Below are positions 1,476 through 20,000 of a stretch of 20,000 nucleotides of DNA, piece by piece (the stretch's first letter is position 1; the number at the start of each line of letters is the position of its first letter). The stretch lies in IMG/VR virus record IMGVR_UViG_3300043469_001223. One strand, given 5' to 3'. Position numbers and translations under genes: made by a program. The DNA comes from an uncultured virus (IMG/VR IMGVR_UViG_3300043469_001223) (lineage: Duplodnaviria; Heunggongvirae; Uroviricota; Caudoviricetes). The notes under the pieces are model-generated. The model saw nothing but the letters and a program-made list of their open reading frames with translations. It was not told where the DNA came from and made no database searches.

Positions 1476-1482
1476 ATTTTGC

Positions 1483-1490
1483 TATAAATA
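1483..1490 (+). promoter_or_regulatory. T4-like late promoter
   Basis: Exact TATAAATA just upstream of ATG 1495. Confidence 0.65.
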
Positions 1491-1494
1491 ACTG

Positions 1495-1827
1495 ATGCGA
1501 TTCGACGACCTTATTAAAAAACCTGCCAAACCGCAGAAGCCATTGACCTATACAGAAAGTTTACAGGCTAAACTTGATGCAGAAATGGCGGATAAACCTG
1601 CTCCAAAATTTACAGCATTAGAATATGCTATGATGGAAGGTGGTCACAGTTTAGAAGAAAACTTTGCAGATGGTAAGAACCCGCAAGACAAAGGCGACAG
1701 CAAGCGTCACGGTGTTCCTACTAAATCGTCAGTAAGTACACTGCGTAAGGTTGCCAAGCAAGGTGGTCGAAAAGGTCAGTTAGCACATTGGATGGCCAAT
1801 ATGAAAGCAGGGAAGGCTAAGAAATGA
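1495..1827 (+). CDS. Hypothetical basic phage protein, possibly virion-internal
   Basis: 110 aa ORF behind late promoter; LEE motif then Lys/Arg-rich C-terminus; ATGA overlap with next gene. Confidence 0.7.
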   Translation: MRFDDLIKKPAKPQKPLTYTESLQAKLDAEMADKPAPKFTALEYAMMEGGHSLEENFADGKNPQDKGDSKRHGVPTKSSVSTLRKVAKQGGRKGQLAHWMANMKAGKAKK

Positions 1828-2111
1828 AGATTCAAGAACTTTTAGAAGACTGGAACAAAGTCAACAAACAAGACAAGACAGATGGCCTTAGTCAAAAGGC
1901 TGTTAATGCTTATCGTAGAGAGAATCCAGGCAGCAAACTTAAGACTGCTGTAACTACTAAGCCTAGTAAATTAAAAGCAGGCAGCAAGGATGCTAAACGC
2001 CGCAAGAGTTTTTGTGCTCGCATGTCGGGTAACAAAGGCCCTATGAAGGACGAGAAAGGTCGTCCAACTCCTAAAGCCAAAGCACTGTCTCGCTGGAACT
2101 GCGAGGAATAA
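1824..2111 (+). CDS. Small basic phage protein (DUF6321-like)
   Basis: RRKSFCARMSG...KALSRWNC motif recognised from T4-like phage proteins; MKIQELLE start. Confidence 0.7.
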   Translation: MKIQELLEDWNKVNKQDKTDGLSQKAVNAYRRENPGSKLKTAVTTKPSKLKAGSKDAKRRKSFCARMSGNKGPMKDEKGRPTPKAKALSRWNCEE

Positions 2112-2114
2112 AAT

Positions 2115-10981: not shown

Positions 10982-11057
10982 CTCGCATTCGGTTAGCGGC
11001 TATGCCACCTGGTTTGGGGCCAGGATTTCGAAGGTTCGAGTCCTTCATGCGAGACCA
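10982..11057 (+). tRNA. tRNA-Pro(UGG)
   Basis: Cloverleaf, loop TTTGGGG, CCA. Confidence 0.9.
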
Positions 11058-11066
11058 AGTTTAAAT

Positions 11067-11158
11067 GGAAAGTAATGCAGCGGGGTTGGTCCTGCGACCA
11101 GCCTTGAAAACTGGGTTCTCAGAAATGGGATGGGGTTCGACTCCTCTGCTTTCCGCCA
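11067..11158 (+). tRNA. tRNA-Ser(UGA)
   Basis: Loop CTTGAAA, long variable arm, GCCA. Confidence 0.88.
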
Positions 11159-11164
11159 AGACAA

Positions 11165-11193
11165 TTGACAAATTCTACATAAGATTGTATAAT
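11165..11193 (+). promoter_or_regulatory. Sigma70 promoter
   Basis: TTGACA-17nt-TATAAT. Confidence 0.8.
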
Positions 11194-11201
11194 TACATTA
11201 T

Positions 11202-11317
11202 GCGACCGTAAGTGGAATATGGCAGACCTCCCGTTATGCTCATAGCATAGGTCAGGGGAAGGGGCACATAACATAGTTACCGTGCTCTTGTAGGTTCGAG
11301 ACCTACCGGTCGTACCA
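11202..11317 (+). tRNA. Oversized (116 nt) tRNA-like gene, Leu-type body, CAU loop on extended arm
   Basis: Acceptor GCGACCG/CGGTCGT-ACCA, T-arm GTAGG-TTCGAGA-CCTAC, TATG-CTCATAG-CATA hairpin. Confidence 0.55.
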
Positions 11318-11321
11318 GTTT

Positions 11322-11384
11322 TAGGATCAGTTCAGCAAACTTAAAAACTTTTTTATTATTCAAAAAAACCAAAGTTGATCCTGT
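11322..11384 (+). ncRNA. TAGG/CAGCAA family RNA, copy A
   Basis: TAGGATCA..CAGCAA..TGATCCTG; T6/A6 hairpin with 7-nt loop ATTATTC. Confidence 0.65.
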
Positions 11385-11392
11385 TTTATTAT

Positions 11393-11467
11393 GTATCCCT
11401 AGTGTCAGCGGCAGCACGCCGGTCTCCAAAACCGTTAGGCTTGGTTCAAATCCAAGGGGGTATGCCA
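11393..11467 (+). tRNA. tRNA-Trp(CCA)
   Basis: Loop CTCCAAA, GCCA. Confidence 0.88.
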
Positions 11468-11471
11468 GTTT

Positions 11472-11529
11472 TAGGATGCGTCCAGCAAATCAAAAAATTC
11501 AACTTTTAATTGAAAAATAAGCATCCTGT
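11472..11529 (+). ncRNA. TAGG/CAGCAA family RNA, copy B (Lys UUU anticodon stem-loop)
   Basis: TAGGATGC..CAGCAA..TTCAA-CTTTTAA-TTGAA..GCATCCTG. Confidence 0.7.
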
Positions 11530-11536
11530 TTTTTGT

Positions 11537-11610
11537 TCCCGGATTGTGTAATGGTAGCACAACAGACTTTGACTCTGTTAGCCTAGGTTCGATCCCTAGT
11601 CCGGGTGCCA
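11537..11610 (+). tRNA. tRNA-Gln(UUG)
   Basis: Loop CTTTGAC, GCCA. Confidence 0.9.
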
Positions 11611-11633
11611 ATATTTTGTTAGACTTCTTAGGT

Positions 11634-11704
11634 GTGGCTATAGTGTAATGGTAGCACTACATGTTGTGACCTTGTCAGTACGGGTTCAAATCCCGTTAGT
11701 CACC
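11634..11704 (+). tRNA. tRNA-His(GUG), no encoded G-1 or CCA
   Basis: Acceptor GTGGCTA/TAGTCAC, loop TTGTGAC, C73 followed by CCT. Confidence 0.82.
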
Positions 11705-11719
11705 CCTAAGCAGTTTATT

Positions 11720-11751
11720 CCTCTTGTAGTTAAATGGTATAACAATCGCTT
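11720..11751 (+). pseudogene. Orphan 5' half of a tRNA
   Basis: CCTCTTG-TA-GTTA-AATGGTA-TAAC-A-ATCGC-TT, with no T-arm or 3' acceptor strand following. Confidence 0.65.
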
Positions 11752-11764
11752 TCCTGGCGAGCGT

Positions 11765-11772
11765 TATAAATA
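11765..11772 (+). promoter_or_regulatory. T4-like late promoter for the endonuclease
   Basis: TATAAATA then AGGAG SD and ATG 11789. Confidence 0.65.
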
Positions 11773-11788
11773 CTTGTAGGAGAACACT

Positions 11789-12190
11789 ATGAGTATATCA
11801 AACGAAAAAGGTGAAATAGGAGAAGCAGCATTTGTGCTCGTTTCTGCCAAAAGAGGATATTGGACTGGCAAAATGCCACAAGGTTGTCCTTATGATTATG
11901 TGTTAGATAGACACGACGGTAAACTTTTACGAATTCAAGTTAAGTTTAGATCGTTAGAAAGTAACGGAATAGTTACAATTAAACTATCTCAAAACACATT
12001 TACAAATAGAGTTTCTTACAATGAAAGTAACATCGATTATATTGCAGTCTATGTAAATGAATTAGATAAAGTATATCTCGTTCCTATTGCAGAAATATGC
12101 GATGTAAAAGAAGTTAAACTGCGATGTGTAGAATCAACAAAAAGAAAAGATAAAAACTCTCGTATAATAACAGAATACGCAGAGTGGTAA
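11789..12190 (+). CDS. PD-(D/E)XK putative homing endonuclease (PDDEXK_5 / I-Ssp6803I-like)
   Basis: KGEIGE..PYDYVLD..RIQVK..Y..IDYIAVY..VYLVP motif order. Confidence 0.8.
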   Translation: MSISNEKGEIGEAAFVLVSAKRGYWTGKMPQGCPYDYVLDRHDGKLLRIQVKFRSLESNGIVTIKLSQNTFTNRVSYNESNIDYIAVYVNELDKVYLVPIAEICDVKEVKLRCVESTKRKDKNSRIITEYAEW

Positions 12191-12195
12191 TTTAT

Positions 12196-12270
12196 GGCCA
12201 CGTAACTCAGAGGCAGAGTACCGTCTTGATAAGGCGGGAGTCGACATTTCGAAATTGTCCGTGGCTACCA
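12196..12270 (+). tRNA. tRNA-Ile(GAU)
   Basis: Loop TTGATAA, ACCA; T53-T61 in place of G53-C61. Confidence 0.85.
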
Positions 12271-12277
12271 ATTTTAT

Positions 12278-12356
12278 CTGTGTGTAATGTCAGTCAGGTC
12301 AGACGGCCGGCCTTGGAAGTCGGAGGTCGCAGGTTCGAATCCTGCCACACAGACCA
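12278..12356 (+). tRNA. tRNA-Pro(UGG), A37 variant
   Basis: Loop CTTGGAA, ACCA. Confidence 0.85.
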
Positions 12357-12362
12357 GTTTAT

Positions 12363-12439
12363 GCATCGGTGACAGAGCGGCCAATGTAGCGGATTGCAAA
12401 TCCGTCCAGTCGTGGGTTCGAGTCCCACCCGATGTTCCA
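12363..12439 (+). tRNA. tRNA-Cys(GCA)
   Basis: Loop TTGCAAA, TCCA. Confidence 0.9.
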
Positions 12440-12446
12440 GTTTATT

Positions 12447-12522
12447 GCCCTTGAAGCCTTTAATGGATGAGGTCCTGTCTTGTAAGCAGGGGAAGTCGGT
12501 TCGATTCCGGACTGGGGCACCA
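12447..12522 (+). tRNA. tRNA-Thr(UGU)
   Basis: Loop CTTGTAA, ACCA; irregular T/acceptor stems. Confidence 0.8.
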
Positions 12523-12529
12523 ATACAAT

Positions 12530-12605
12530 GCAACTTTAGCTGATGTGGTCATAGCGGTGGTCTGAAGAGCCATTGAAGTAGGTTCGATCCCTACAGGTTG
12601 CACCA
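12530..12605 (+). tRNA. tRNA-Phe(GAA), G37 variant
   Basis: Loop CTGAAGA, ACCA. Confidence 0.85.
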
Positions 12606-12612
12606 ATTTTAT

Positions 12613-12688
12613 CCTTGAGTTAAGCGGGGCCGTATACACCCTTGCCAATAGTTAGTAATGTGTACTGCGACATACACCTCGAGGGCCA
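12613..12688 (+). ncRNA. tRNA-sized RNA with acceptor stem and CCA but non-canonical arms
   Basis: CCTTGAG/CTCGAGG-GCCA, 76 nt, GTGTA-CTGCGACA-TACAC in T-arm position. Confidence 0.55.
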
Positions 12689-12695
12689 AGTTTAT

Positions 12696-12769
12696 GCGTG
12701 GTTCGTTTAATGGTAAGATCACTGGCTTCCACCCAGTAGTTAAGGGTTCGATTCCCTTACCCCGCACCA
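12696..12769 (+). tRNA. tRNA-Gly(UCC), A73 variant
   Basis: Loop CTTCCAC, ACCA. Confidence 0.85.
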
Positions 12770-12772
12770 GTT

Positions 12773-12836
12773 TAGGATACTTACAGCAAACCAAAATATT
12801 TCACTTTTTGGCTGTGAAAAGCAAACAGTATCCTGT
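12773..12836 (+). ncRNA. TAGG/CAGCAA family RNA, copy C (UUG-centred loop)
   Basis: TAGGATACT..CAGCAA..TTTCAC-TTTTTGGCT-GTGAAA..AGTATCCTG. Confidence 0.68.
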
Positions 12837-12880
12837 TTAATAGTGTTGTTAAAATACAACAAAAATAGTTGCAAAGACTA

Positions 12881-12952
12881 TTGACAAGGAGGTAAAACCT
12901 TGCTATAATTAACACATACACTAAGCAATTAGATGTAAATGTTCTTTAAAAA
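12881..12952 (+). promoter_or_regulatory. Sigma70 promoter with downstream hairpin and boxA-like site
   Basis: TTGACA-17-TATAAT (12881-12909); CTAA-GCAA-TTAG; TGTTCTTTAAAAA (12940-12952). Confidence 0.78.
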
Positions 12953-12968
12953 TTTACAGTATAAGAAG

Positions 12969-13081
12969 TTCTTATACACATACACACAAATGCTTAGGCC
13001 AAGCAGATAGAGGTGGTATCTAGCTGGACGAGAAGTCCAGTTGGCAGGTTCGAGTCCTGTGAGTGTGTAGTTGTATAAGAA
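12969..13081 (+). ncRNA. tRNA-like RNA with long variable arm inside extended stem, no CCA
   Basis: TTCTTATACA/TGTATAAGAA; arms GCTT/AAGC, AGATA/TATCT, AGCTGGAC/GTCCAGTT, GCAGG-TTCGAGT-CCTGT. Confidence 0.6.
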
Positions 13082-13085
13082 TTTT

Positions 13086-13162
13086 ACTTCGTTCGTCTAC
13101 GTGGTTTAGGACGCTAGCCTTTCAAGTTGGAAAAACGGGTTCGAGTCCCGTACGGAGTACCA
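13086..13162 (+). tRNA. tRNA-Glu(UUC)
   Basis: Loop CTTTCAA, ACCA. Confidence 0.88.
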
Positions 13163-13165
13163 AGT

Positions 13166-13264
13166 TAACAACACTCAACGCACTGTAGGATGGCATTCAG
13201 TCTCCCTGCCAGCGAGGGATGAGAGTGGCAGGCATAACTGGTTAATGTTATGCTTGTGTTATTA
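13166..13264 (+). ncRNA. Unidentified structured RNA
   Basis: TAACAACAC/GTGTTATTA closing stem; TCCCT/AGGGA, CTGCCA/TGGCAG, GGCATAAC/GTTATGCT. Confidence 0.45.
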
Positions 13265-13269
13265 GTTTT

Positions 13270-13345
13270 GCCACAGTAGTCCTCTGGGTAGGGCACCGGA
13301 TTGTCTATCCGATTTAGGCGGGTTCGATTCCCGTCTGTGGCGCCA
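13270..13345 (+). tRNA. tRNA-Asp(GUC), U37
   Basis: Loop TTGTCTA, GCCA. Confidence 0.85.
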
Positions 13346-13351
13346 AGTTAT

Positions 13352-13438
13352 GGAGATGTAGGAAAATTGGTAACCCCAGTGGACTGTAAATCCGCCGCCC
13401 GAAAGGCACTACTGGTTCGACTCCAGTCGTCTCCACCA
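13352..13438 (+). tRNA. tRNA-Tyr(GUA)
   Basis: Loop CTGTAAA, variable arm, ACCA. Confidence 0.9.
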
Positions 13439-13445
13439 AGTTAAT

Positions 13446-13520
13446 GGTCCTGTCATATAGTGGTTATTATACCGGCCTGTCTAGTCGGATATCGGGGTTC
13501 GATTCCCCGCAGGATCGCCA
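13446..13520 (+). tRNA. tRNA-Asp(GUC), U37
   Basis: Loop CTGTCTA, GCCA. Confidence 0.88.
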
Positions 13521-13528
13521 AAATTTAT

Positions 13529-13607
13529 TCCGTGAAATCCAAGCATGGTGCAAGGACTTGACTGTTAATCAATGATTAGGTGAGTTCGATCCTCACACAC
13601 GGAGCCA
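13529..13607 (+). tRNA. tRNA-Asn(GUU)
   Basis: Loop CTGTTAA, GCCA. Confidence 0.85.
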
Positions 13608-13616
13608 ATACAATTT

Positions 13617-13691
13617 GGGGGCAGCAGAGGGCTGCGGCGTTGCCTTGCAAGCATCGTGACTAGAGGGGTTCGATACCCCCGGCCTCCACCA
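13617..13691 (+). tRNA. tRNA-Ala(UGC), reduced D-arm
   Basis: Loop CTTGCAA, G3-U70, ACCA. Confidence 0.75.
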
Positions 13692-13699
13692 AACATTTT

Positions 13700-13775
13700 G
13701 CCACAATAGCTCCAATGGTAGAGCAGCGGATTGAAAATTCGTGTGTTACTGGTTCGAGTCCAGTTTGTGGCACCA
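13700..13775 (+). tRNA. tRNA-Phe(GAA)
   Basis: Loop TTGAAAA, ACCA. Confidence 0.9.
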
Positions 13776-13838
13776 AACAAGGGCCGTGAGATAATATCAA
13801 GACGATCGGCGCTGGAGCACCTACCCAGCACAAATTTT

Positions 13839-13899
13839 TAGGATAGCAACAGCAAAATCAAAAATTTCACTGTTAATGAAACCAAAAATGCTATCCTGT
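13839..13899 (+). ncRNA. TAGG/CAGCAA family RNA, copy D (Asn GUU anticodon stem-loop)
   Basis: TAGGATAGCA..CAGCAA..TTTCA-CTGTTAA-TGAAA..TGCTATCCTG. Confidence 0.7.
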
Positions 13900-13906
13900 T
13901 TTATTT

Positions 13907-13981
13907 GCCCGCATAGTATAATGGATAATACACTGGTCTACGAAACCGGGGATTGTGGTTCGATTCCATATGTGGGCACCA
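13907..13981 (+). tRNA. tRNA-Arg(ACG)
   Basis: Loop CTACGAA, ACCA. Confidence 0.9.
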
Positions 13982-13988
13982 AGTTAAT

Positions 13989-14066
13989 GGGCGATGACTG
14001 TTGTAAAGGATAACAGGCGGTAGCAACCCTGCCGTGACAGTGGTTCGATTCCACTATCGTCCACCA
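13989..14066 (+). tRNA. tRNA with non-canonical anticodon loop (GCAACCC)
   Basis: Good acceptor GGGCGAT/ATCGTCC-ACCA and T-arm; no U33. Confidence 0.6.
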
Positions 14067-14069
14067 AGT

Positions 14070-14279
14070 TTTGTAAGTGTCAGCAAGTAGAGTCACGCTG
14101 TCTAGGTATGTTCGAACTACCAAAACAGTAGAAGGTAGCGGGTTCGATCCCCGTCCGATCGGAAGATCGGAATACAGTTGGAGTATCGTCTGGACAAAGC
14201 CCAAGTGACGTATCTTGACCCTGCCGGCTTTATTACAAGGGAAAATGGTTGCGATATGAGGGACGCAACAGCTTACAAA
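14070..14279 (+). ncRNA. ~210-nt structured RNA with two T-loop hairpins
   Basis: TTTGTAAG/CTTACAAA ends, GTCAC/GTGAC, GGTA-TGTTCGAAC-TACC, GCGGG-TTCGATC-CCCGT. Confidence 0.6.
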
Positions 14280-14289
14280 TTCAATGCGG

Positions 14290-14318
14290 TTGACAACTAC
14301 CCTAAAAGGTTGTATAAT
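14290..14318 (+). promoter_or_regulatory. Sigma70 promoter
   Basis: TTGACA-17nt-TATAAT. Confidence 0.82.
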
Positions 14319-14347
14319 AGAAACTTAAACACAAAAGAGGTAATGAC

Positions 14348-14371
14348 ATGAAACGTTCAGGTAAACGATAG
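14348..14371 (+). CDS. Putative leader mini-ORF MKRSGKR
   Basis: GAGGT SD 6 nt upstream; ATG AAA CGT TCA GGT AAA CGA TAG; stop abuts switchable hairpin. Confidence 0.55.
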   Translation: MKRSGKR

Positions 14372-14443
14372 TGTCAATCTTAGATCCCGTATATGGTCTA
14401 GGGTTGGCACATTAAAGACAAATTTAATATGCAACAACCCTAG
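14371..14443 (+). promoter_or_regulatory. Mutually exclusive hairpins overlapping tRNA-Lys 5' end
   Basis: 14371-14386 pairs with 14395-14410, or 14398-14416 pairs with 14423-14443. Confidence 0.65.
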
Positions 14444-14514
14444 CTGGCGTTTAACGGTAGCGTACTCGGCTCTTAACCGATGAGGTGTCAGTTCGAATCT
14501 GACGCTAGGGACCA
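14438..14514 (+). tRNA. tRNA-Lys(CUU)
   Basis: CCCTAGC/GCTAGGG-ACCA, loop CTCTTAA. Confidence 0.85.
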
Positions 14515-14519
14515 TATAT

Positions 14520-14597
14520 GGGATTGTAGTGTCAACGGTTTAGCACAGCGGACTTTTAATCCGCCAGGTTCCGGTTCGAATCCGGACAGTCCTACCA
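14520..14597 (+). tRNA. tRNA-Lys(UUU)
   Basis: Loop CTTTTAA, ACCA. Confidence 0.9.
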
Positions 14598-14690
14598 TAT
14601 CAAAGCTCACTAGAACTAGTGTGGGCATCCGCTTCCTCACGTAGTGCAGGAGGCGTAACGGTTCGATTCCGCTAGTGTGTTTTGATATGG
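14595..14690 (+). ncRNA. Stem-enclosed RNA with T-arm
   Basis: CCATATCAAAGCTCACTAG/CTAGTGTGTTTTGATATGG; CGG-TTCGATT-CCG. Confidence 0.55.
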
Positions 14691-14763
14691 TAACGTAGCA
14701 TAATGGTTGTGCAACACCTTCATACGGTGCCCGGTGTGAGTTCGAATCTCACCGTTACTACCA
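14689..14763 (+). tRNA. tRNA-Met(CAU)
   Basis: Loop TTCATAC, ACCA. Confidence 0.85.
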
Positions 14764-14768
14764 AACAT

Positions 14769-14844
14769 GTCCCATTCATCTAGAGGCCTAGGATAGTACC
14801 CTTTCACGGTATTTACAGCGGTTCGAATCCGCTATGGGACGCCA
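14769..14844 (+). tRNA. tRNA-Glu(UUC)
   Basis: Loop CTTTCAC, GCCA. Confidence 0.9.
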
Positions 14845-14846
14845 AG

Positions 14847-14993
14847 TTTTGAGATAGACGTTGAAGTAGAGTCCCTTGTGCGCTAGGTCCCTATTCTTGA
14901 GACTGACACACCAGTAGCAACACAAGGTAGTTTAAACTCCTTCATACGAGACAAGCCAGTGAGTCCTTGAGAAAGATAGCTGGTCTCTCAAAA
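14847..14993 (+). ncRNA. Unidentified structured RNA
   Basis: TTTTGAGA/TCTCAAAA ends; TGAAG..GAGT/ACTC..CTTCA; CCTTGTG/CACAAGG; CCAG/CTGG. Confidence 0.5.
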
Positions 14994-15001
14994 ACCTATT
15001 T

Positions 15002-15079
15002 GCCCCTGTAGCCCAATTGGTAGCAGGCAACAGTCTTAAACATTGTCAAGTACCGGTTCGAATCCGGTCAGGGGTACCA
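15002..15079 (+). tRNA. tRNA with UAA (Leu) anticodon but short variable loop
   Basis: ACAGT-CTTAAAC-ATTGT, ACCA. Confidence 0.78.
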
Positions 15080-15085
15080 AACAAT

Positions 15086-15175
15086 AGTGAGTTGCCAGAG
15101 AGGCCTATTGGCGCATCTTGGAAAGGTGATGGTTCCGTAAGGGGCACGAGAGTTCGAATCTCTCACTCACTGCCA
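15086..15175 (+). tRNA. tRNA-Ser(GGA)
   Basis: Loop TTGGAAA, long variable arm, GCCA. Confidence 0.9.
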
Positions 15176-15176
15176 C

Positions 15177-15251
15177 ACCGCTTTCGTATAATGGATAATA
15201 CGGCAGGCTTCTACCCTGCGAATATGGGTTCGATTCCTGTAGGCGGTACCA
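15177..15251 (+). tRNA. tRNA-Arg(UCU)
   Basis: Loop CTTCTAC, ACCA. Confidence 0.9.
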
Positions 15252-15256
15252 CATAT

Positions 15257-15331
15257 CGGTCTTTGGTGAAATGGATATCATCTCGGTCTTCGAAACCGAG
15301 GGTGGGAGTTCGATCCTCTCAAGACCGGCCA
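15257..15331 (+). tRNA. tRNA-Arg(UCG)
   Basis: Loop CTTCGAA, GCCA. Confidence 0.9.
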
Positions 15332-15334
15332 TAT

Positions 15335-15409
15335 CTCGCTATAGTACAATGGATAGTACGGGGTCCTCCTAAGACTTAAATGTAGGTTCGATTCCTACTG
15401 GCGGGACCA
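15335..15409 (+). tRNA. tRNA-Arg(CCU)
   Basis: Loop CTCCTAA, ACCA. Confidence 0.9.
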
Positions 15410-15449
15410 AGTTTTATATACAGTTAATGATAAATATTTGTTTACTATT

Positions 15450-16940
15450 ATGAATGTTATTATTATACAAACAATTAGCGATTATCGGGGCGCCGCTCCT
15501 AGATCAATTGGGGGTCACCAATTAGCTTGGTATTTAAGACTCTTTGGTTATACAGTACAGGTTATAAATTATTCTGAACCAATTTTTACATTGGATAAAG
15601 TAAATGCACTGTTTGAAAAATTTGTAACAGATGAAACCAAAGTTATAGGCCTTGGAGGAATTTTATTAGAAGCTAACGATGTATTCTTTTCTATATTCAG
15701 TTCAGCAATTAAACAACTTAAAACAAAACATCCAAATTTAAAAATAATAGCCGGTGGCCCATCTGTTGGTATAATTAAAGGAAAATTAAAAAAAACACTT
15801 GATTATTATTTTACAGGTCATGCTGAAAATACAATGTTACAATTTTGCAATTGGATTTTTAAAAAAGGTCCACAGCCATTTGTCGAAATAGGTGCAGACG
15901 GTTACAAAATTGTAAAAGAATCTTCGTATCAAAGTAATGAAGGATTTTCAATTGAGCAGTGTAATTTTAGGTGGCATGACAGTGATGCTATACAGCCAAA
16001 TGAAGCATTGCCGTTAGAAACAACCAGGGGATGCATTTTTAAGTGTAAATTCTGTCAATATCCGTTAATTGGAAAAAATAAAAAAGATTTCCTTAAACCG
16101 ATGGAAAATATAAGAGATGAGTTACTTGACAATTACGAAAGATTTGGAACAACGAATTATTATATTTTAGACGATACATTTAATGCAGACACCGAAAGAT
16201 TGGAAGAATTTGCCAAAATGGTATCATCCTTACCTTTTAAAATTAAATATGCAACTTATTTAAGATTAGATTTAATTGAGGCTCATCGTCATACTGAAGA
16301 TATGTTATTGGAAAGCGGTCTTTATGGAGCTTTTTTTGGAATAGAAAGTTTTAATAAAGATGCATCTGCTTTGGTAGGAAAGGCATTTAGCGGAAAAAAA
16401 GCCAAAGACTATTTGCCTCATTTGTTACAGGACAGATGGCAGGGAAAAGTAAAAGAACATCTTAGTTTTATCGCAGGCATTCCTCCAGAAACATTAGATG
16501 ATTTAAAAGAAACTCATAACTGGTGTGTCGATAATAAAATAACATCCTGGAAAATAATTCCCTTATTACTTAATAAACCTGATACTTCGGTATTCACTAG
16601 TGAGTTTGAACGTAATGCAGAAAAATATGGATTTGAAATAATACAGGTATTGCCCGAGTCTTACGCTATTGGTAAGCGTCTCTGGAGACAAACTTGGTGG
16701 AAGCATTCATCAGGTCTTACATTTTTAGATGTAGTAAAATGGACAAATTTGCTAACTGAAAGCGCGGCCCCGCATGTTAAAAGAGGCGGCTGGAACGCAG
16801 TTGAAGTCCTACAATTTGGATACACTGTTGAAGAAATAGATAGACTGCGATGGGGCGAATACAACTTAGACAATGAATGGCAAAATAGAGTTCACTTGTT
16901 TGTACAAACGTATTATAATGATCTCATGTCTCTAAAATAA
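15450..16940 (+). CDS. B12-binding-domain-type radical SAM protein
   Basis: KIIAGGP..GHAE N-domain, ETTRGCIFKCKFC, YILDDTFN, FFGIES; ATG at 15450 after ATAAATA. Confidence 0.88.
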   Translation: MNVIIIQTISDYRGAAPRSIGGHQLAWYLRLFGYTVQVINYSEPIFTLDKVNALFEKFVTDETKVIGLGGILLEANDVFFSIFSSAIKQLKTKHPNLKIIAGGPSVGIIKGKLKKTLDYYFTGHAENTMLQFCNWIFKKGPQPFVEIGADGYKIVKESSYQSNEGFSIEQCNFRWHDSDAIQPNEALPLETTRGCIFKCKFCQYPLIGKNKKDFLKPMENIRDELLDNYERFGTTNYYILDDTFNADTERLEEFAKMVSSLPFKIKYATYLRLDLIEAHRHTEDMLLESGLYGAFFGIESFNKDASALVGKAFSGKKAKDYLPHLLQDRWQGKVKEHLSFIAGIPPETLDDLKETHNWCVDNKITSWKIIPLLLNKPDTSVFTSEFERNAEKYGFEIIQVLPESYAIGKRLWRQTWWKHSSGLTFLDVVKWTNLLTESAAPHVKRGGWNAVEVLQFGYTVEEIDRLRWGEYNLDNEWQNRVHLFVQTYYNDLMSLK

Positions 16941-16976
16941 ACATTTAGATTTGATTCCTAGTGATAACACAAAAAT

Positions 16977-17050
16977 GCTCTTGTAGTACAATGGTAGTAC
17001 ACTGTCTTGGTACGACAGCAATCAAAGTTCGATTCTTTGCTTGAGCACCA
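16977..17050 (+). tRNA. tRNA-Thr(GGU)
   Basis: Loop TTGGTAC, ACCA. Confidence 0.85.
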
Positions 17051-17070
17051 AAAATATTTTTAAATACCTG

Positions 17071-17139
17071 TTGACACACACTGAGAAAGACAGTATAATT
17101 TATACATACGCTGCTAATAACAGCACTGTTCTTTAAAAA
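17071..17139 (+). promoter_or_regulatory. Sigma70 promoter with downstream hairpin and boxA-like site
   Basis: TTGACA-17-TATAAT (17071-17099); GCTG/CAGC hairpin; TGTTCTTTAAAAA (17127-17139). Confidence 0.78.
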
Positions 17140-17156
17140 TGTAAAGTTAGTATTTT

Positions 17157-17240
17157 GCGAGAGTGGAGAAATGGTATACTCAGCAGACTTAAAATCTGCC
17201 GCCGAAAGGCATACGGGTTCGAGTCCCGTCTCTCGCACCA
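17157..17240 (+). tRNA. tRNA-Leu(UAA)
   Basis: Loop CTTAAAA, variable arm, ACCA. Confidence 0.92.
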
Positions 17241-17360
17241 TTAATTGAATCCTTTGCAAGCACAGAGGTTTGATCATACGTTATGTAACCTATTCAATAA
17301 ACCGTCAACTCGAGTAAAGCGTGTTGAGGATAGGCATATAGTGTAGAGGATTCAACTAAT
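17241..17360 (+). ncRNA. Unidentified structured RNA
   Basis: TTGAATCCTTTGCA/TGTAGAGGATTCAA closing stem; CCTATTC/GGATAGG inside. Confidence 0.5.
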
Positions 17361-17368
17361 GGAAATTT

Positions 17369-17458
17369 GGTGCGGTCCTATAATGGTATTAGAGCGGATT
17401 GCTAATCCGTCGCTCGGCGTAATCCGGGTTCTGAGTTCGAGTCTCAGTCGCACCGCCA
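17369..17458 (+). tRNA. tRNA-Ser(GCU)
   Basis: Loop TTGCTAA, long variable arm, GCCA. Confidence 0.9.
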
Positions 17459-17467
17459 AACATACAT

Positions 17468-17559
17468 GCCAGCGAGACTTGGTAGTCAGAGAGGCCTTAT
17501 AGACCTTTTAGCGCCAGATTAGCGTTCTTGAGAGGGTTCGATCCCCTCCGCTGGTACCA
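17468..17559 (+). tRNA. Atypical tRNA with UAU anticodon, mini D-arm and long variable arm
   Basis: GCCAGCG/CGCTGGT-ACCA, GACT-TGGT-AGTC, loop CTTATAG, AGCGC/GCGTT arm. Confidence 0.7.
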
Positions 17560-17568
17560 ATGATTGAT

Positions 17569-17645
17569 GCGCCTATAGCTCAGTTGGTCAGAGCAGAGGA
17601 CTCATAATCCTTTGGTCCTAGGTTCAAGTCCTAGTGGGCGCACCA
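17569..17645 (+). tRNA. tRNA-CAU (probably Ile2)
   Basis: Loop CTCATAA, ileX-like body, ACCA. Confidence 0.85.
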
Positions 17646-17662
17646 AGTTATTAAAATAGAGG

Positions 17663-17691
17663 TTGACAGGATTATAAATATCCTGTATAAT
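17663..17691 (+). promoter_or_regulatory. Sigma70 promoter with nested TATAAATA late promoter
   Basis: TTGACA-GGAT-TATAAATA-TCCTG-TATAAT. Confidence 0.8.
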
Positions 17692-17699
17692 AAAAATTT

Positions 17700-17783
17700 G
17701 CCCCGGTGGTGTAATGGTAGCCACGCTGGTCTTAGAAGCCAGTGCCGAGAGGCGTGTCGGTTCGAGTCCGACCTGGGGCACCA
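17700..17783 (+). tRNA. tRNA-Leu(UAG)
   Basis: Loop CTTAGAA, variable arm, ACCA. Confidence 0.92.
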
Positions 17784-17866
17784 TATTAAAACACATACAG
17801 ATCCGCCCTCTAGTAGGGGAGATAGCGACTAGCGTTGAAGGACTGTTTAAATGTGTTTTAATATGG
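17781..17866 (+). ncRNA. Stem-enclosed RNA
   Basis: Perfect 16-bp CCATATTAAAACACAT/ATGTGTTTTAATATGG. Confidence 0.55.
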
Positions 17867-17939
17867 GCTGATAGTGATAATGGGAGCACAGTGGCTTTGC
17901 AAGCCTCGGGTGGGAGTTCGATCCTCCCTCGGTCCACCA
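17865..17939 (+). tRNA. tRNA-Ala(UGC)
   Basis: Loop TTTGCAA, G3-U70, ACCA. Confidence 0.88.
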
Positions 17940-17960
17940 TAAAATTTTTTAAGGAATAAA

Positions 17961-18134
17961 ATGAGAGCAAGAACAGGTTCAACTTTTAGGTTGAGTAAAA
18001 GAGCAAAGACTATGATAGCATTGATGAGTTTTAAGAACGATCAAGACCGTCATGGATTCAAAAATGCAATGATAGATGCTCAAGTGGCTGCGAACATTGT
18101 TCCGCGATCCTCTAAAGAGCGAGACGCAAAGTAA
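17961..18134 (+). CDS. Hypothetical 57-aa basic protein
   Basis: AAGGA SD; MRARTGSTFRLSKRAKTMIALMSFKNDQDRHGFKNAMIDAQVAANIVPRSSKERDAK. Confidence 0.7.
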   Translation: MRARTGSTFRLSKRAKTMIALMSFKNDQDRHGFKNAMIDAQVAANIVPRSSKERDAK

Positions 18135-18141
18135 AGTATAT

Positions 18142-18217
18142 TCCCTGGTAGCTCAGCGGTAGTAGCAGCAGACTGTTAATCTGTTGGTCGCAAGTTCGAT
18201 CCTTGCCCGGGGAGCCA
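18142..18217 (+). tRNA. tRNA-Asn(GUU)
   Basis: Loop CTGTTAA, GCCA. Confidence 0.92.
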
Positions 18218-18244
18218 AATTTTTTAAACCAACGAAAGTAATAG

Positions 18245-18475
18245 ATGATTAAAGTTATTAAAGTTCCCTTTTCTCCACAGAACATCGACACAGACAAATG
18301 TGTCGAAGCCGTGGGCAATAGATTTGATCTAGTTCTGATTGCCAGTGCTCGAGTTCGCGAACTGCGACGTGGACATGCTAAACAAGTTAGCGGAACCAAC
18401 AGTGCCACTATTACTGCCTTGCAAGAAATTGAAGCAGGTAAAATTGGTAGAGAGTATCTTAAAAAGGTTCGGTAA
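18245..18475 (+). CDS. rpoZ: RNA polymerase omega subunit homologue
   Basis: VGNRFDLVLIASARVREL..TALQEIEAGKI matches the omega signature. Confidence 0.88.
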   Translation: MIKVIKVPFSPQNIDTDKCVEAVGNRFDLVLIASARVRELRRGHAKQVSGTNSATITALQEIEAGKIGREYLKKVR

Positions 18476-18741
18476 TGTCAAAAGGTTCAAGAGCTCGTCC
18501 GTTTAGCGTTAGCCAGAATACATTTGCTAACAACTATGACGCTATTTTTGGAAAGAAAGATATGCAAGTAAGAGTACAAGAAAATGCAGATGAGATTGGA
18601 AAATGCGGTTGTGGTCGTAGTCCGACTGGTAAGTGTGTCGGTTGGCATGGTCTAACAGAAGCTGACTTTCAATCAAAGCTAGCATCATATCTAGCAGATG
18701 AACAGTCAAAGAATGTAAGTGATTCCACTCAGGGCGGTTAA
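18475..18741 (+). CDS. Small protein with CDGSH-type Fe-S motif
   Basis: CGCGRSPTGKCVGWH; TAATG overlap with rpoZ. Confidence 0.7.
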   Translation: MSKGSRARPFSVSQNTFANNYDAIFGKKDMQVRVQENADEIGKCGCGRSPTGKCVGWHGLTEADFQSKLASYLADEQSKNVSDSTQGG

Positions 18742-18750
18742 ATATATTGC

Positions 18751-18825
18751 GCCCTGTTAGCACAGTGGCAATGCGCCGCTCTTGTAAAGCGGAGATCGTC
18801 TGTTCGATTCAGACACGGGGCACCA
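18751..18825 (+). tRNA. tRNA-Thr(UGU)
   Basis: Loop CTTGTAA, ACCA. Confidence 0.88.
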
Positions 18826-18831
18826 AGTTTT

Positions 18832-18894
18832 TAGGTTAATTACAGCTATCAAAAATATGGCGACTGCTAGGTCATTAAACTAGTATTAACCTGT
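18832..18894 (+). ncRNA. TAGG/CAGCAA family RNA, copy E (CT-GCT-A loop)
   Basis: TAGGTTAAT..CAGCTA..ATGGC-GACTGCTAG-GTCAT..ATTAACCTG. Confidence 0.65.
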
Positions 18895-18900
18895 TGAAAA

Positions 18901-19102
18901 CCCGTCTTACTATTTCTACGTAACGAAATAGCGTCTCTGTAACGATAGACCAGAGGGTACACTAGGACCTGACCTCACAGTCCCTATTTAAGGGATACTG
19001 GAAACTGCCTAGGGTGAGGATTAACAGCCTTTCCAGAAGAAGAAAATGTTATGGACGTAGCAACAGACCAGTTTAGGGCTCATGTGGTGTGAGTAGCTAG
19101 AC
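18901..19102 (+). ncRNA. Unidentified pseudoknot-rich RNA region
   Basis: Crossing pairings CTAGG/CCTAG, CCTCAC/GTGAGG, CTGGAAA/TTTCCAG plus flanking hairpins. Confidence 0.5.
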
Positions 19103-19211
19103 ACTTTATTGAAACGCATTGTGGAGAGCACTGTGTAGATTGGGAAGGTTTGATTCCGACTCACTACATCACTCGGTATCCTGCGGCCGCAACAGTGTGT
19201 TTCAATAAGGT
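19103..19211 (+). ncRNA. Stem-enclosed RNA with T-loop-like hairpin
   Basis: TTATTGAAACGCATTGT/ACAGTGTGTTTCAATAA; GG-TTTGATT-CC. Confidence 0.55.
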
Positions 19212-19212
19212 A

Positions 19213-19335
19213 ACTTTATTAAAATATATTCTTTGTCTACGTAGCCCAAACCCGGGGGAGCCTTGCAAAGGAAATGTGCCTAGCACACGGTACAACAAGC
19301 ATAAGACACTTGTTGGGAGTATGTTTTAATAAAGT
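19213..19335 (+). ncRNA. Stem-enclosed multi-hairpin RNA
   Basis: ACTTTATTAAAATATATTC/GAGTATGTTTTAATAAAGT; CC-TTGCAAA-GG inside. Confidence 0.55.
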
Positions 19336-19337
19336 AT

Positions 19338-19411
19338 GCGGGGTTCGTATAGTGGTAATACCTGAGCCTTCCAAGCTCATGCTGAGAGTTCGATTCTCTT
19401 ACCCCGCTCCA
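19338..19411 (+). tRNA. tRNA-Gly(UCC)
   Basis: Loop CTTCCAA, TCCA. Confidence 0.9.
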
Positions 19412-19418
19412 TATTTTT

Positions 19419-19494
19419 GCCTGGTTGCGCAGAGAGGTTATGCATCTCCTTTACACGGAGAACGATGTCAGTTCGAGTCTGACACCAGGTACCA
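19419..19494 (+). tRNA. tRNA-Val(UAC)
   Basis: Loop TTTACAC, ACCA. Confidence 0.88.
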
Positions 19495-19501
19495 TTTAAA
19501 T

Positions 19502-19579
19502 CGGAATGTAGCGCAGTCTGGTTAGCGCATCGCGTTTGGGACGCGAGGGTCGTAGGTTCGAATCCTACTATTCCGACCA
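19502..19579 (+). tRNA. tRNA-Pro(UGG)
   Basis: Loop TTTGGGA, ACCA. Confidence 0.92.
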
Positions 19580-19646
19580 TAAATACAAGAAAGAATTCAC
19601 CATGGCACACGGTGTATAATAGGATAAGTAGTGTGGCAAAGAATAT

Positions 19647-19720
19647 AGCGGGCAGGGCGGCCACCACTCCAGTCTCATAAGCTCGGAGCATCCCAGGTTC
19701 AAATCCTGGGCCCGCATCCA
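19647..19720 (+). tRNA. Atypical tRNA-CAU (initiator-like 1-72 mismatch, reduced D-arm)
   Basis: AGCGGGC/GCCCGCA-TCCA, loop CTCATAA, GGTTCAAATCC. Confidence 0.7.
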
Positions 19721-19724
19721 ATTT

Positions 19725-19842
19725 TAGGATACATGCAGCAACGTCTTAAATGACATGTTGGTTCGATTCCAACTCCACGCTTTTGCGTAGATCGCTCAAT
19801 GGTAGAGCAATGGCTTCCAAGCCATCGAAAAAGGTATCCTGT
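19725..19842 (+). ncRNA. TAGG/CAGCAA family RNA, copy F, containing circularly permuted tRNA-Gly-like domain
   Basis: TAGGATAC..CAGCAA..T-arm, looped acceptor stem, D-arm, anticodon arm..GTATCCTG. Confidence 0.72.
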
Positions 19843-19976
19843 TTTATTTTGTTATTCCGGACGCCCTGAAAGGGGAGGTGGTATCGAGCAGTGCGGCAGT
19901 ATAGCTGCCATGGCGTCGTGAGGTTGTAGAACAATAAACTGATAAAATCTACAATATAACAAATGGTTTGACCATT

Positions 19977-20000
19977 TAGGTTCTTTTCAGCAATCTTATT
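19977..20000 (+). ncRNA. TAGG/CAGCAA family RNA, copy G (cut by window end)
   Basis: TAGGTTCTTTT-CAGCAA with the same spacing as other copies. Confidence 0.5.

What the first reader, a model, noticed from the sequence alone, without database searches (positions are those of the whole stretch)
11322..20000. Seven-copy small-RNA family that displays different tRNA anticodon stem-loops on a conserved handle
Seen: copies at 11322, 11472, 12773, 13839, 18832, 19725 and 19977 (partial) all read TAGG-N7-CAGC(A/T)A and, where complete, end in CCTGTT. The terminal stem covaries (GGATCA/TGATCC, GGATGC/GCATCC, GGATAC/GTATCC, GGATAGCA/TGCTATCC, GGTTAAT/ATTAACC), so structure is conserved rather than sequence. 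Between A-rich linkers each holds a variable hairpin: TTCAA-CTTTTAA-TTGAA (same loop as tRNA-Lys(UUU) at 14520), TTTCA-CTGTTAA-TGAAA (same loop as both tRNA-Asn), a TTG-centred loop, a CT-GCT-A loop, a degenerate ATTATTC loop, and in copy F a whole permuted tRNA. Most copies begin a few bases after a tRNA CCA. Known: tRNA-Lys(UUU) is cut by PrrC and tRNA-Asn by colicin E5; bacterial Y RNAs couple a Ro60-binding stem to a tRNA mimic. Inference: a modular handle-plus-bait RNA system acting as decoys or sensors for host anticodon nucleases, or as adaptors for a Ro/TROVE-like or RNA-repair protein that binds CAGCAA.
Basis: partly seen in the sequence, partly recalled or inferred. Interest (0 to 1): 0.93.

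Follow-up and report, generated by a model that had tools for sequence, protein, structure and literature searches.

The report
Partner RNAs of a phage Ro60-like protein
A large lake phage carries ten copies of a small RNA with a fixed "handle" and swappable tRNA-like inserts, and this RNA almost always sits beside a widespread phage protein shaped like the Ro60 RNA-binding ring, so the two probably form a new kind of Ro/Y-RNA particle.

Summary
TAGG-N7-CAGCWA occurs 7 times in the window against 0.09 expected, and 10 times on that strand of the 207.8-kb genome. All 10 are closed by an exact 6-nt complement followed by G.

The three copies outside the window lie in tandem directly upstream of a 465-aa DUF2828/DUF7788 gene. 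Its predicted fold matches Ro60.

The pairing is conserved:
- 75 of 80 related metagenomic phage loci carry the element on the gene strand.
- All 9 cultured phages examined carry it by pattern search; a covariance model confirms 6 of them.
- It is absent from the one canonical TROVE/YrlA phage checked.

The stem covaries while ACAGCAA and the CUG end stay fixed.

Inserts include anticodon-like hairpins (11 of 52 against 1.0 expected), permuted tRNA mimics, and larger folded domains.

No Rfam family reaches its threshold. Sub-threshold full-length matches go to YrlA and to Dictyostelium Class I RNA.

Best reading: these are Y-RNA-like partners of a Ro60-like phage protein. Binding itself and the decoy function are not shown. 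I class it as a new variant of a known kind.

The parts
11323..11385 (+). Copy A. Handle AGGAUCA/UGAUCCU with the motif UCAGCAA. The insert is a U6/A6 hairpin whose loop is not anticodon-like. The copy ends CCUGUU.
   Evidence: CM R1 52.8 bits; Rfam Dicty_Class_I 24.3 bits
11473..11530 (+). Copy B. Handle AGGAUGC/GCAUCCU. The insert is the hairpin UUCAA-CUUUUAA-UUGAA, with a Lys(UUU)-type loop.
   Evidence: CM R1 56.6 bits; Rfam Dicty_Class_I 29.4 bits, full length
12774..12837 (+). Copy C. Handle AGGAUAC/GUAUCCU with the motif CUUACAGCAA. The insert hairpin has a 9-nt loop centred on UUG.
   Evidence: alignment to RF01414, 29.4 bits; CM R1 55.6 bits
13840..13900 (+). Copy D. A 9-bp handle AGGAUAGCA/UGCUAUCCU. 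The insert is the hairpin UUUCA-CUGUUAA-UGAAA, with an Asn(GUU)-type loop.
   Evidence: CM R1 58.5 bits
18833..18895 (+). Copy E. Handle AGGUUAAU/AUUAACCU with the variant motif ACAGCUA. The insert hairpin has a 9-nt loop containing CUGCUA.
   Evidence: CM R1 33.4 bits
19726..19843 (+). Copy F. Handle AGGAUAC/GUAUCCU enclosing a permuted tRNA mimic. Order of parts: small hairpin, T arm, acceptor stem capped by UUUU, D arm, anticodon arm (loop UUCCAAG).
   Evidence: Rfam YrlA full length, 29.3 bits against a gathering score of 69; CM R1 26.4 bits, not in the training set
19978..20000 (+). Copy G, 5' part only. The handle starts AGGUUCU and the copy continues 96 nt beyond the window (L002 '-' strand). 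The remainder holds the hairpin CUUU-CUGUAAA-AAAG (Tyr GUA-type loop), a T arm, a capped acceptor and a D arm, then AGAACCUGUU, then a Shine-Dalgarno sequence and ATG.
   Evidence: CM R1 partial hit, 20.2 bits

Best explanation
These are small RNAs that act as Y-RNA-like partners of the phage's Ro60-like protein (DUF2828/DUF7788, 465 aa).

The handle is the protein-binding site. It consists of a 7-bp stem joining the two ends, the single-stranded ACAGCAA just 3' of the 5' strand, and the CUG(U) tail.

The insert varies from copy to copy and is the working end. It can be an anticodon stem-loop mimic, a whole tRNA mimic with a capped acceptor stem, or a larger folded domain. It would tether the protein ring to proteins that handle tRNA, or compete with tRNA for them.

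The copy that abuts the Shine-Dalgarno sequence of the protein's own gene probably gives feedback on translation.

Shown here: the RNA anatomy, the covariation, the conserved linkage to the gene, and the Ro60-like predicted fold. Inferred: binding, RNA processing, and what the inserts do.
For: 1. All 10 copies in the genome share the handle.

2. Three copies (166, 240 and 43 nt) lie in tandem behind sigma-70-like promoters scoring 12/12 and 10/12+TG. They end 10 nt before the start codon of the DUF2828/DUF7788 gene.

3. The AlphaFold model has mean pLDDT 94.4. The 13 best Foldseek PDB matches are all Ro60/TROVE (1yvr, E 1.4e-7, TM 0.63; phage phiLo Ro60; Rsr). The MIDAS residues D270, S272, S274, T342 and D374 are invariant in 60 sequences.

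4. In 80 related viral loci the motif hits the gene strand 209 times and the opposite strand 17 times. Of these, 187 of 209 have the exact closing stem plus G, against 0 of 17 on the opposite strand and 115 of 4180 with the 5' strand shuffled. 75 of 80 loci carry at least one complete element.

5. The stem covaries. 97.6% of cells are paired and the covariation score is 0.50, against 0.18 in shuffles (0 of 500 reach it) and at most 0.13 with partners slid. ACAGCAA is fixed.

6. All 9 cultured DUF2828 phage loci examined have the element on the gene strand near the gene. The hosts are Escherichia, Vibrio, Mycobacterium, Listeria, Campylobacter, Enterococcus, Bacillus, Synechococcus and Ralstonia. 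The covariance model hits 6 of the 9 at E<=0.01, all 15 model hits are on the gene strand, and there are none in the TROVE/YrlA phage CcrColossus.

7. Anticodon-like loops occur in 11 of 52 short elements, against 1.0±1.0 in shuffles. The elements of about 101-125 nt in related loci include ones with an anticodon hairpin, T arm, capped acceptor and D arm.

8. Precedent exists. Y RNAs are encoded next to Ro60 and mimic tRNA (PMC4201824, passages and Table S2). Phage phiLo Ro60 binds two upstream Y-like RNAs (PMC12135203, passages).
Against: No binding was tested.

The protein misses Pfam TROVE, and the handle lacks the GNCGAA/CGAA motif of known Y RNAs.

RNA evidence is inconclusive. Only contigs from metatranscriptome runs could be laid on the region, so no RNA ends were seen.

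The seven copies in the window lie 23-32 kb from the gene.

The covariation count was made on elements that had been selected for pairing, so it is partly circular. The motif-first counts are not.

KVP40 and EFDG1 elements were found by pattern only, not by the covariance model.

An AAA ATPase lies near the gene in only 14 of 80 loci. No RtcB or RNA ligase family was found among the genome's ORFs at E<=1e-5.
Confidence: 0.65

Rival explanations
1. Free-standing decoys. The inserts compete with real tRNAs for host anticodon nucleases or tRNA-modifying enzymes. The handle only clamps and stabilises the hairpin and has no protein partner of its own.
For: The insert loops copy the loops of the phage's own tRNAs (Lys, Asn, Tyr, Cys and others). 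The copies lie inside tRNA arrays. That nucleases such as PrrC and colicin E5 cut such loops is recalled knowledge, not taken from any call.
Against: This does not explain why ACAGCAA stays invariant across five bacterial phyla. It does not explain why the elements cluster at the DUF2828 gene even where the insert is not tRNA-like (166-nt, 240-nt and 43-nt copies).
Confidence: 0.12
2. Processing or regulatory punctuation. The handle is a recognition site for a host RNase that cuts long tRNA transcripts, or a cis-acting leader of the DUF2828 gene, and is not a stable RNA.
For: The copies occupy tRNA-like slots. The tail GUUUU resembles the trailers that follow CCA in the array. One copy abuts the Shine-Dalgarno sequence of the DUF2828 gene, and copy G abuts that of a small ORF.
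Against: Structured inserts are conserved and covary. Several tandem copies stand before one gene, with promoters of their own. The anatomy is the same as Y RNAs and Class I RNAs, which are stable RNAs.
Confidence: 0.1
3. Circularly permuted tRNA genes that are cut, ligated and matured into working tRNAs.
For: In copies F and G the 3' half precedes the 5' half. YrlA has been compared to permuted tRNAs (bioRxiv 10.1101/312249, passages).
Against: The acceptor stem is capped by a short loop with no discriminator or CCA, whereas neighbouring tRNAs encode CCA. Five of the 7 window copies have no T, D or acceptor arm. No RtcB or RNA ligase family was found among the genome's ORFs.
Confidence: 0.04
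4. Transcription terminators or a DNA-level repeat.
For: Several copies end in a run of U after the stem.
Against: The terminator scan lists no site at any of the copies. The U run is missing in the leader copies and in many relatives. The element is strand-specific and its stems covary. tRNA genes follow 8-10 nt after copies A, B and D.
Confidence: 0.02

Closest known systems
Bacterial and phage Y RNAs of the YrlA type, with Ro60/Rsr (Rfam RF02553; Chen 2014; phage phiLo Yrl1/Yrl2)
   Same: The RNAs are encoded in tandem beside a gene for a Ro60-fold protein. A stem joins the 5' and 3' ends. The module is a tRNA mimic with T arm, D arm and a loop-capped acceptor. Full-length sub-threshold YrlA matches reach 29.3 bits in the window and up to 44.9 bits in relatives.
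   Different: The protein belongs to Pfam DUF2828/DUF7788, not TROVE. Its BLASTP match to the CcrColossus Ro covers only 145 residues at 28% identity. The handle carries ACAGCAA in place of GNCGAA/CGAA. Most copies have no tRNA body, only an anticodon-like hairpin, and YrlA is described as lacking an anticodon loop. There are up to 10 copies per genome, scattered through tRNA arrays.
Class I RNAs of dictyostelid social amoebas (Rfam RF01414; Kjellin 2021)
   Same: The short forms are about 55-65 nt. A short covarying stem joins the ends. The conserved motif ...UUACAGCAA lies directly after the 5' strand. The rest is variable and A/U-rich. The start reads AG and the end reads CUGU. Full-length matches score 24-33 bits.
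   Different: All matches fall below the gathering score of 41.5. The spacing is one nucleotide shorter. The promoters are bacterial, not DUSE. The known direct binder in Dictyostelium is the RRM protein Rnp1A. I could not find out whether dictyostelids have a DUF2828 protein.
Circularly permuted tRNA genes (Cyanidioschyzon type)
   Same: Copies F and G place the T arm and 3' acceptor strand ahead of the 5' acceptor strand and D arm.
   Different: There is no CCA or discriminator, no bulge-helix-bulge junction was identified, and most copies lack a tRNA body.

Membership tests
Y RNA / YrlA (RF02553) | Encoded next to a Ro60-type gene | tested here: met
   Three copies lie directly upstream of the gene for a protein with a Ro60-like predicted fold. 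75 of 80 related loci and 9 of 9 cultured phages show the same linkage.
Y RNA / YrlA (RF02553) | Terminal stem carrying the GNCGAAN0-1G / CGAA Ro-binding motif (as described in PMC4201824 and PMC12135203) | tested here: not met
   The logo of 144 unique elements shows ACAGCAA and no GNCGAA. The YrlA alignment of copy F does not conserve that stretch.
Y RNA / YrlA (RF02553) | tRNA-like domain with T arm, D arm and capped acceptor | tested here: met
   Present in copies F and G and in part of the 101-125-nt elements of relatives. Absent from copies A-E.
Y RNA / YrlA (RF02553) | Rfam gathering score of 69 bits | tested here: not met
   29.3 bits in the window. The best score in relatives is 44.9 bits.
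Y RNA / YrlA (RF02553) | Bound by the Ro60 protein | not testable with these tools
   This needs immunoprecipitation or a gel-shift assay.
Dictyostelium Class I RNA (RF01414) | Short stem joining the 5' and 3' ends, conserved in structure but not in sequence | tested here: met
Dictyostelium Class I RNA (RF01414) | Conserved 11-nt motif next to the 5' strand of the stem | tested here: inconclusive
   ACAGCAA (7 of 11) is fixed or nearly fixed. Copy C carries CUUACAGCAA. The spacing is one nucleotide shorter.
Dictyostelium Class I RNA (RF01414) | Length 42-65 nt, with ends AAG... and ...CUGU | tested here: inconclusive
   At DNA level, copies A-E span 56-62 nt from AGG to CCUG, and 8 of 10 copies end CCUGUU. 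The RNA ends were not mapped.
Dictyostelium Class I RNA (RF01414) | Rfam gathering score of 41.5 bits | tested here: not met
   29.4, 29.4 and 24.3 bits in the window. The best score in relatives is 33.1 bits.
Dictyostelium Class I RNA (RF01414) | DUSE promoter and dictyostelid host | tested here: not met
   The promoters are sigma-70-like and the genome is a phage genome.
Ro60/TROVE protein (for the neighbouring gene) | Helical-repeat ring plus a vWA domain with a MIDAS site | tested here: met
   In Foldseek the top 13 matches are all Ro60/TROVE, with TM 0.63 over the full length. D-x-S-x-S, T and D are invariant.
Ro60/TROVE protein (for the neighbouring gene) | Match to Pfam TROVE | tested here: not met
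   Only PF11443 and PF25043 are hit. A phmmer search of PDB sequences finds nothing.
Intrinsic terminator | G+C-rich hairpin directly followed by a run of U | tested here: not met
   The scan lists no terminator-like site at any of the copies.
Known self-cleaving ribozyme classes | Match to an Rfam ribozyme model | tested here: not met
   No ribozyme family appears at E<=5 on the array or on the upstream copies.

The most novel reading that the evidence does not exclude
The phage handle RNAs and the dictyostelid Class I RNAs are one RNA class. It would be the dedicated ligand of DUF2828/DUF7788 proteins, a second branch of Ro60-like rings found in thousands of phages, in giant viruses, and in plants, fungi and protists. 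On this reading, the orphan Class I RNAs are Y-RNA equivalents. The pulled-down protein of unknown function (DDB_G0281243), or another amoeba DUF2828 protein, would be their ring. The phage versions have been turned into display racks for tRNA parts.
Probability: 0.35. Interest if true: 0.9.

Novelty: new variant of a known kind. Interest (0 to 1): 0.82.

Why it matters
DUF2828 is one of the commonest phage proteins with no known function. A search of near-length proteins found at least 7954 relatives. A search of cluster representatives found 6264 clusters at 50% identity. It occurs in 710 cultured phage records, including Felix O1-like, KVP40-like, Listeria P100-like and Campylobacter phages and mycobacteriophages, where it is labelled at most 'RNA-binding' or 'Ro-like'.

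The finding gives this protein a candidate RNA partner with a simple, searchable signature. That makes its function testable in E. coli phages.

It also shows a modular design not described for Y RNAs: one handle carrying many tRNA-derived inserts.

It fills stretches of phage tRNA clusters that carry no matching annotation in the records I looked at.

Finally, it offers a concrete, checkable hypothesis for the unexplained Class I RNAs of social amoebas and for eukaryotic DUF2828 proteins.

Tried and rejected
RNA evidence. Four metatranscriptome runs were laid on window 11000-14500. Only contigs were available. They give no RNA starts or ends, and most pieces are tRNA-like fragments of relatives. 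One RNA-library contig covers 12692-12962 across copy C. Another joins a copy-C-like 5' handle to a copy-D-like 3' handle around a different insert. DNA carry-over cannot be excluded, so I draw no conclusion on expression.

Rfam. At gathering scores only tRNAs are found. Nothing is found on the three upstream copies even at E<=5.

Sequence searches. Megablast of the array against cultured phages gives only tRNA-sized matches. A phmmer search of PDB sequences with the protein finds nothing.

Literature:
- A search for DUF2828 found 5 unrelated papers.
- DDB_G0281243 appears only in the Kjellin preprint.
- Avesson 2011 is not held.
- A first search that included the word TROVE was swamped by 'treasure trove'.

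Dictyostelium. Neither the search for longer proteins nor the protein atlas showed a Dictyostelium DUF2828 protein. Neither tool could have shown that one is absent.

Earlier notes of this scan held nothing relevant.

AAA ATPase partner. The ATPase lies near the gene in only 14 of 80 loci, so it is not treated as part of the system.

Covariance model. It found no copies in the genome beyond those already known, and it misses the two copies with large inserts.

Full report
**Setting**

The window is the minus strand of positions 83397-103396 of a single 207,813-bp contig with 40.8% G+C. The contig has phage-type content. ARAGORN tRNA genes in the window. Pfam scans of the genome's ORFs find many auxiliary genes and structural-type genes with collagen and Mtd_N domains. 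Near-identical DNA is present in many lake-water metagenome runs.

- TAGG-N7-CAGCWA occurs 7 times in the window, all on the + strand. The mean in shuffles is 0.09 and the maximum is 1.
- In the whole genome there are 10 hits on that strand and 1 on the other.
- Starting from the 5' motif alone, every one of the 10 is followed by the exact complement of AGGNNN and then G. The elements are 43 to 240 nt long. The ends read CCUGUU in 8, CCUGCU in 1 and CCUGAA in 1.
- Minimum-free-energy folds of the six complete copies in the window and of the 43-nt leader copy all keep this closing stem.
- A covariance model built from the short forms recovers 8 of the 10 copies. It recovers copy F at 26.4 bits although F was not in the training set. 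It finds no further copies in the genome.

The three copies outside the window lie 12 kb upstream, in tandem. Their positions on the '-' strand of L001 are:

| Copy | L001 position | Length |
|---|---|---|
| 1 | 12663-12498 | 166 nt |
| 2 | 12437-12198 | 240 nt |
| 3 | 12192-12150 | 43 nt |

- They follow a 12/12 consensus promoter and a 10/12 extended -10 promoter.
- The third copy ends 10 nt before the ATG of a 465-aa ORF, so its tail runs into the Shine-Dalgarno sequence.
- That ORF matches Pfam DUF7788 (E 1.5e-51) and DUF2828 (E 7e-30), and does not match TROVE.
- With a 60-sequence alignment, AlphaFold gives mean pLDDT 94.4.
- The 13 best Foldseek matches in the PDB are all Ro60/TROVE proteins. 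They include Xenopus Ro (E 1.4e-7, TM 0.63, full length), Deinococcus Rsr, and the Ro60 of Thermus phage phiLo.
- The MIDAS residues of the vWA domain are invariant.

**The linkage between RNA and gene is conserved**

A search of viral contigs with the protein found 355 relatives. The best 80 loci, at 56-100% identity, were kept. Counts in their 699 kb:

| Measure | Gene strand | Opposite strand | 5' strand shuffled |
|---|---|---|---|
| Hits to AG-N8-CAGCWA | 209 | 17 | n/a |
| Of these, with exact 6-nt complement plus G within 340 nt | 187 of 209 | 0 of 17 | 115 of 4180 |

- 75 of 80 loci carry at least one complete element. Of the five that do not, three have almost no sequence upstream of the gene, and one has a variant stem.
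- The usual layout is the same triple array as here, at about -480, -310 and -68 from the start codon.
- In 144 unique elements, position 5 of the stem and A-CAGCAA are almost fixed. Stem positions 3, 4, 6 and 7 change in pairs.
- On an alignment of 48 short forms, 97.6% of cells pair. The covariation score is 0.50, against 0.18 in shuffles (0 of 500 reach it) and at most 0.13 when the partners are slid. These rows had been selected for pairing, so this count is partly circular. The motif-first counts above are not.
- The 166-nt class has a conserved internal structure with compensatory changes.
- More distant DUF2828 loci (33-47% identity to a second query) still show a stem plus ACAGCAA in some cases, though the terminal letters drift.

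**Cultured phages**

tblastn finds the protein in 710 phage records, 707 of them at 80% coverage or more. The annotations read 'hypothetical', 'RNA-binding protein', 'Ro-like RNA binding protein', 'DUF2828' or 'vWFA protein'.

I fetched nine loci:

| Phage | Host genus |
|---|---|
| wV8 | Escherichia |
| KVP40 | Vibrio |
| Faith1 | Mycobacterium |
| LMSP-25 | Listeria |
| CPX | Campylobacter |
| EFDG1 | Enterococcus |
| PK-3 | Bacillus |
| BUCT-ZZ01 | Synechococcus |
| RSP15 | Ralstonia |

- All nine have a 7-bp stem plus CAGCWA element on the gene strand within 3-4 kb. These are often tandem copies in stretches with no matching annotation next to the gene, or they lie between tRNA genes.
- The covariance model confirms six of the nine at E<=0.01, and PK-3 at E 0.12. 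KVP40 and EFDG1 rest on the pattern search alone. All 15 model hits are on the gene strand.
- Caulobacter phage CcrColossus has a canonical TROVE protein and three published YrlA RNAs (PMC4201824, Table S2). It has no such element. Its protein matches ours only over 145 residues.
- So this handle goes with the DUF2828 branch, and YrlA goes with the TROVE branch.

**The inserts**

- Among 52 unique short elements, 11 have a hairpin of at least 4 bp with a 7-nt loop of the form YU-NNN-RN. In 500 shuffles the figure is 1.0±1.0 with a maximum of 5.
- The loops include CUUUUAA, CUGUUAA, CUGCAAA, CUUGUAA and CUUGAAC.
- The leader copies before the gene mostly have 9-nt loops and do not fit this pattern.
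- Among the elements of 101-125 nt in related loci, several carry an anticodon-like hairpin, then a T arm, an acceptor stem closed by a short loop, and a D arm. Copy G has this layout, with a CUGUAAA loop.
- Copy F is opened at the variable region instead.

It is not right for the copies before the gene.

**Comparison with known families**

- No Rfam family reaches its gathering score.
- With permissive thresholds, copy F matches YrlA over the full model at 29.3 bits, against a gathering score of 69. Relatives reach 40.1 and 44.9 bits.
- Copies B, C and A match the Dictyostelium Class I RNA model over its full length at 29.4, 29.4 and 24.3 bits, against a gathering score of 41.5. The E-value is 3e-4 when copy C is searched alone. 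Relatives reach 33.1 bits.
- The printed Class I consensus shares the terminal stem, CUUACAGCAA and the final CUG.
- Kjellin 2021 (PMC7919456, passages read) defines Class I RNAs by a 6-bp covarying end stem, an 11-nt motif beside its 5' strand, a start AAG, an end CUGU and a length of 42-65 nt. The paper reports none outside Dictyostelia.
- The preprint version (passages read) lists four proteins pulled down with one Class I RNA. One of them, DDB_G0281243, has unknown function.
- DUF2828 proteins exist in plants, fungi and protists at 25-36% identity, and in giant viruses. I could not learn whether dictyostelids have one.

**Mechanism**

By analogy with Ro60 and Y RNA (Chen 2014; the phiLo paper, where the phage Ro60, its upstream Y-like RNAs and host PNPase form a complex), I take the handle to be the docking site for the ring protein. 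I take the insert to be the part that engages tRNA-handling partners. The leader copy would be a feedback site.

One outside observation fits an RNA-metabolism role. The homologue in mycobacteriophage LeBron is toxic when over-expressed, and that phage also encodes an RNA ligase and a polynucleotide kinase (PMC13148394, passages). The Listeria phage locus has a gene annotated 'tRNA splicing ligase' 1.3 kb downstream.

Binding, processing and the targets of the inserts remain inferred. Whether the inserts act as decoys against tRNA-cleaving defence systems is open.

**What was not possible**

- No raw RNA reads were available, so RNA ends and abundance are unknown.
- No eukaryote genomes can be searched here.
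- bioRxiv supplements are closed and Avesson 2011 is not held. Either might name the domain content of DDB_G0281243.

Noticed in passing
window 14123-14228: Metatranscriptome contigs of 101-107 nt match this stretch with 0 differences, at contig depths of 930 and 1264. It lies in a 450-nt stretch of the array with no tRNA. The stretch contains an adapter-like GATCGGAAGA, which inflates the binned depth. Rfam gives only a weak tmRNA_permuted hit nearby (16.8 bits).
   Followed up: no
window 11201-11317, 13590-13692, 13985-14062: These stretches end in a T-arm-like GGTTCGA..., an acceptor-like strand and CCA, but ARAGORN does not call them. They may be tRNA-like genes with long inserts or odd D arms. 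I read this from the sequence only.
   Followed up: no
window 11067-11154 and 17468-17555: Sub-threshold matches to the tRNA-Sec model (33.9 and 26.7 bits, gathering score 47), in slots that ARAGORN left empty.
   Followed up: no
window 11789-12190, 15438-16940, 18245-18475: Protein genes are embedded in the tRNA array: a PD-(D/E)XK endonuclease, a radical SAM/B12-binding protein, and an RNA polymerase omega (Rpb6-like) protein.
   Followed up: no
window 6-4178 and L001 508-3569: The phage carries curli-related genes (curlin repeats, CsgG), a FecR-like gene, and a CHASE2 adenylate/guanylate cyclase.
   Followed up: no
   Followed up: no
L102:1470-2021 (Listeria phage LMSP-25): A ROOL RNA match just under threshold (88.5 bits, gathering score 99.1) lies about 1 kb upstream of the DUF2828 gene and its three handle RNAs.
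   Followed up: no
L058:3113-3439: A related viral contig carries an alphaproteobacterial two-piece tmRNA (142.5 bits) 1.4 kb upstream of its DUF2828 gene. This hints at an alphaproteobacterial host for that relative.
   Followed up: no
L101 (Caulobacter phage CcrColossus, '-' strand, about 1700-2700): The published YrlA RNAs of this phage also contain anticodon-like hairpins ahead of the T arm; one reads UCGA-CUGUUAA-UCGA. Displaying an anticodon loop is therefore not unique to the DUF2828-type RNAs.
   Followed up: partly
L001:12767-13873 ('-' strand): An AAA+ ATPase gene lies directly upstream of the three handle RNAs. A homologue lies within 5 kb of the DUF2828 gene in 14 of 80 related loci, on either side of it.
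   Followed up: partly
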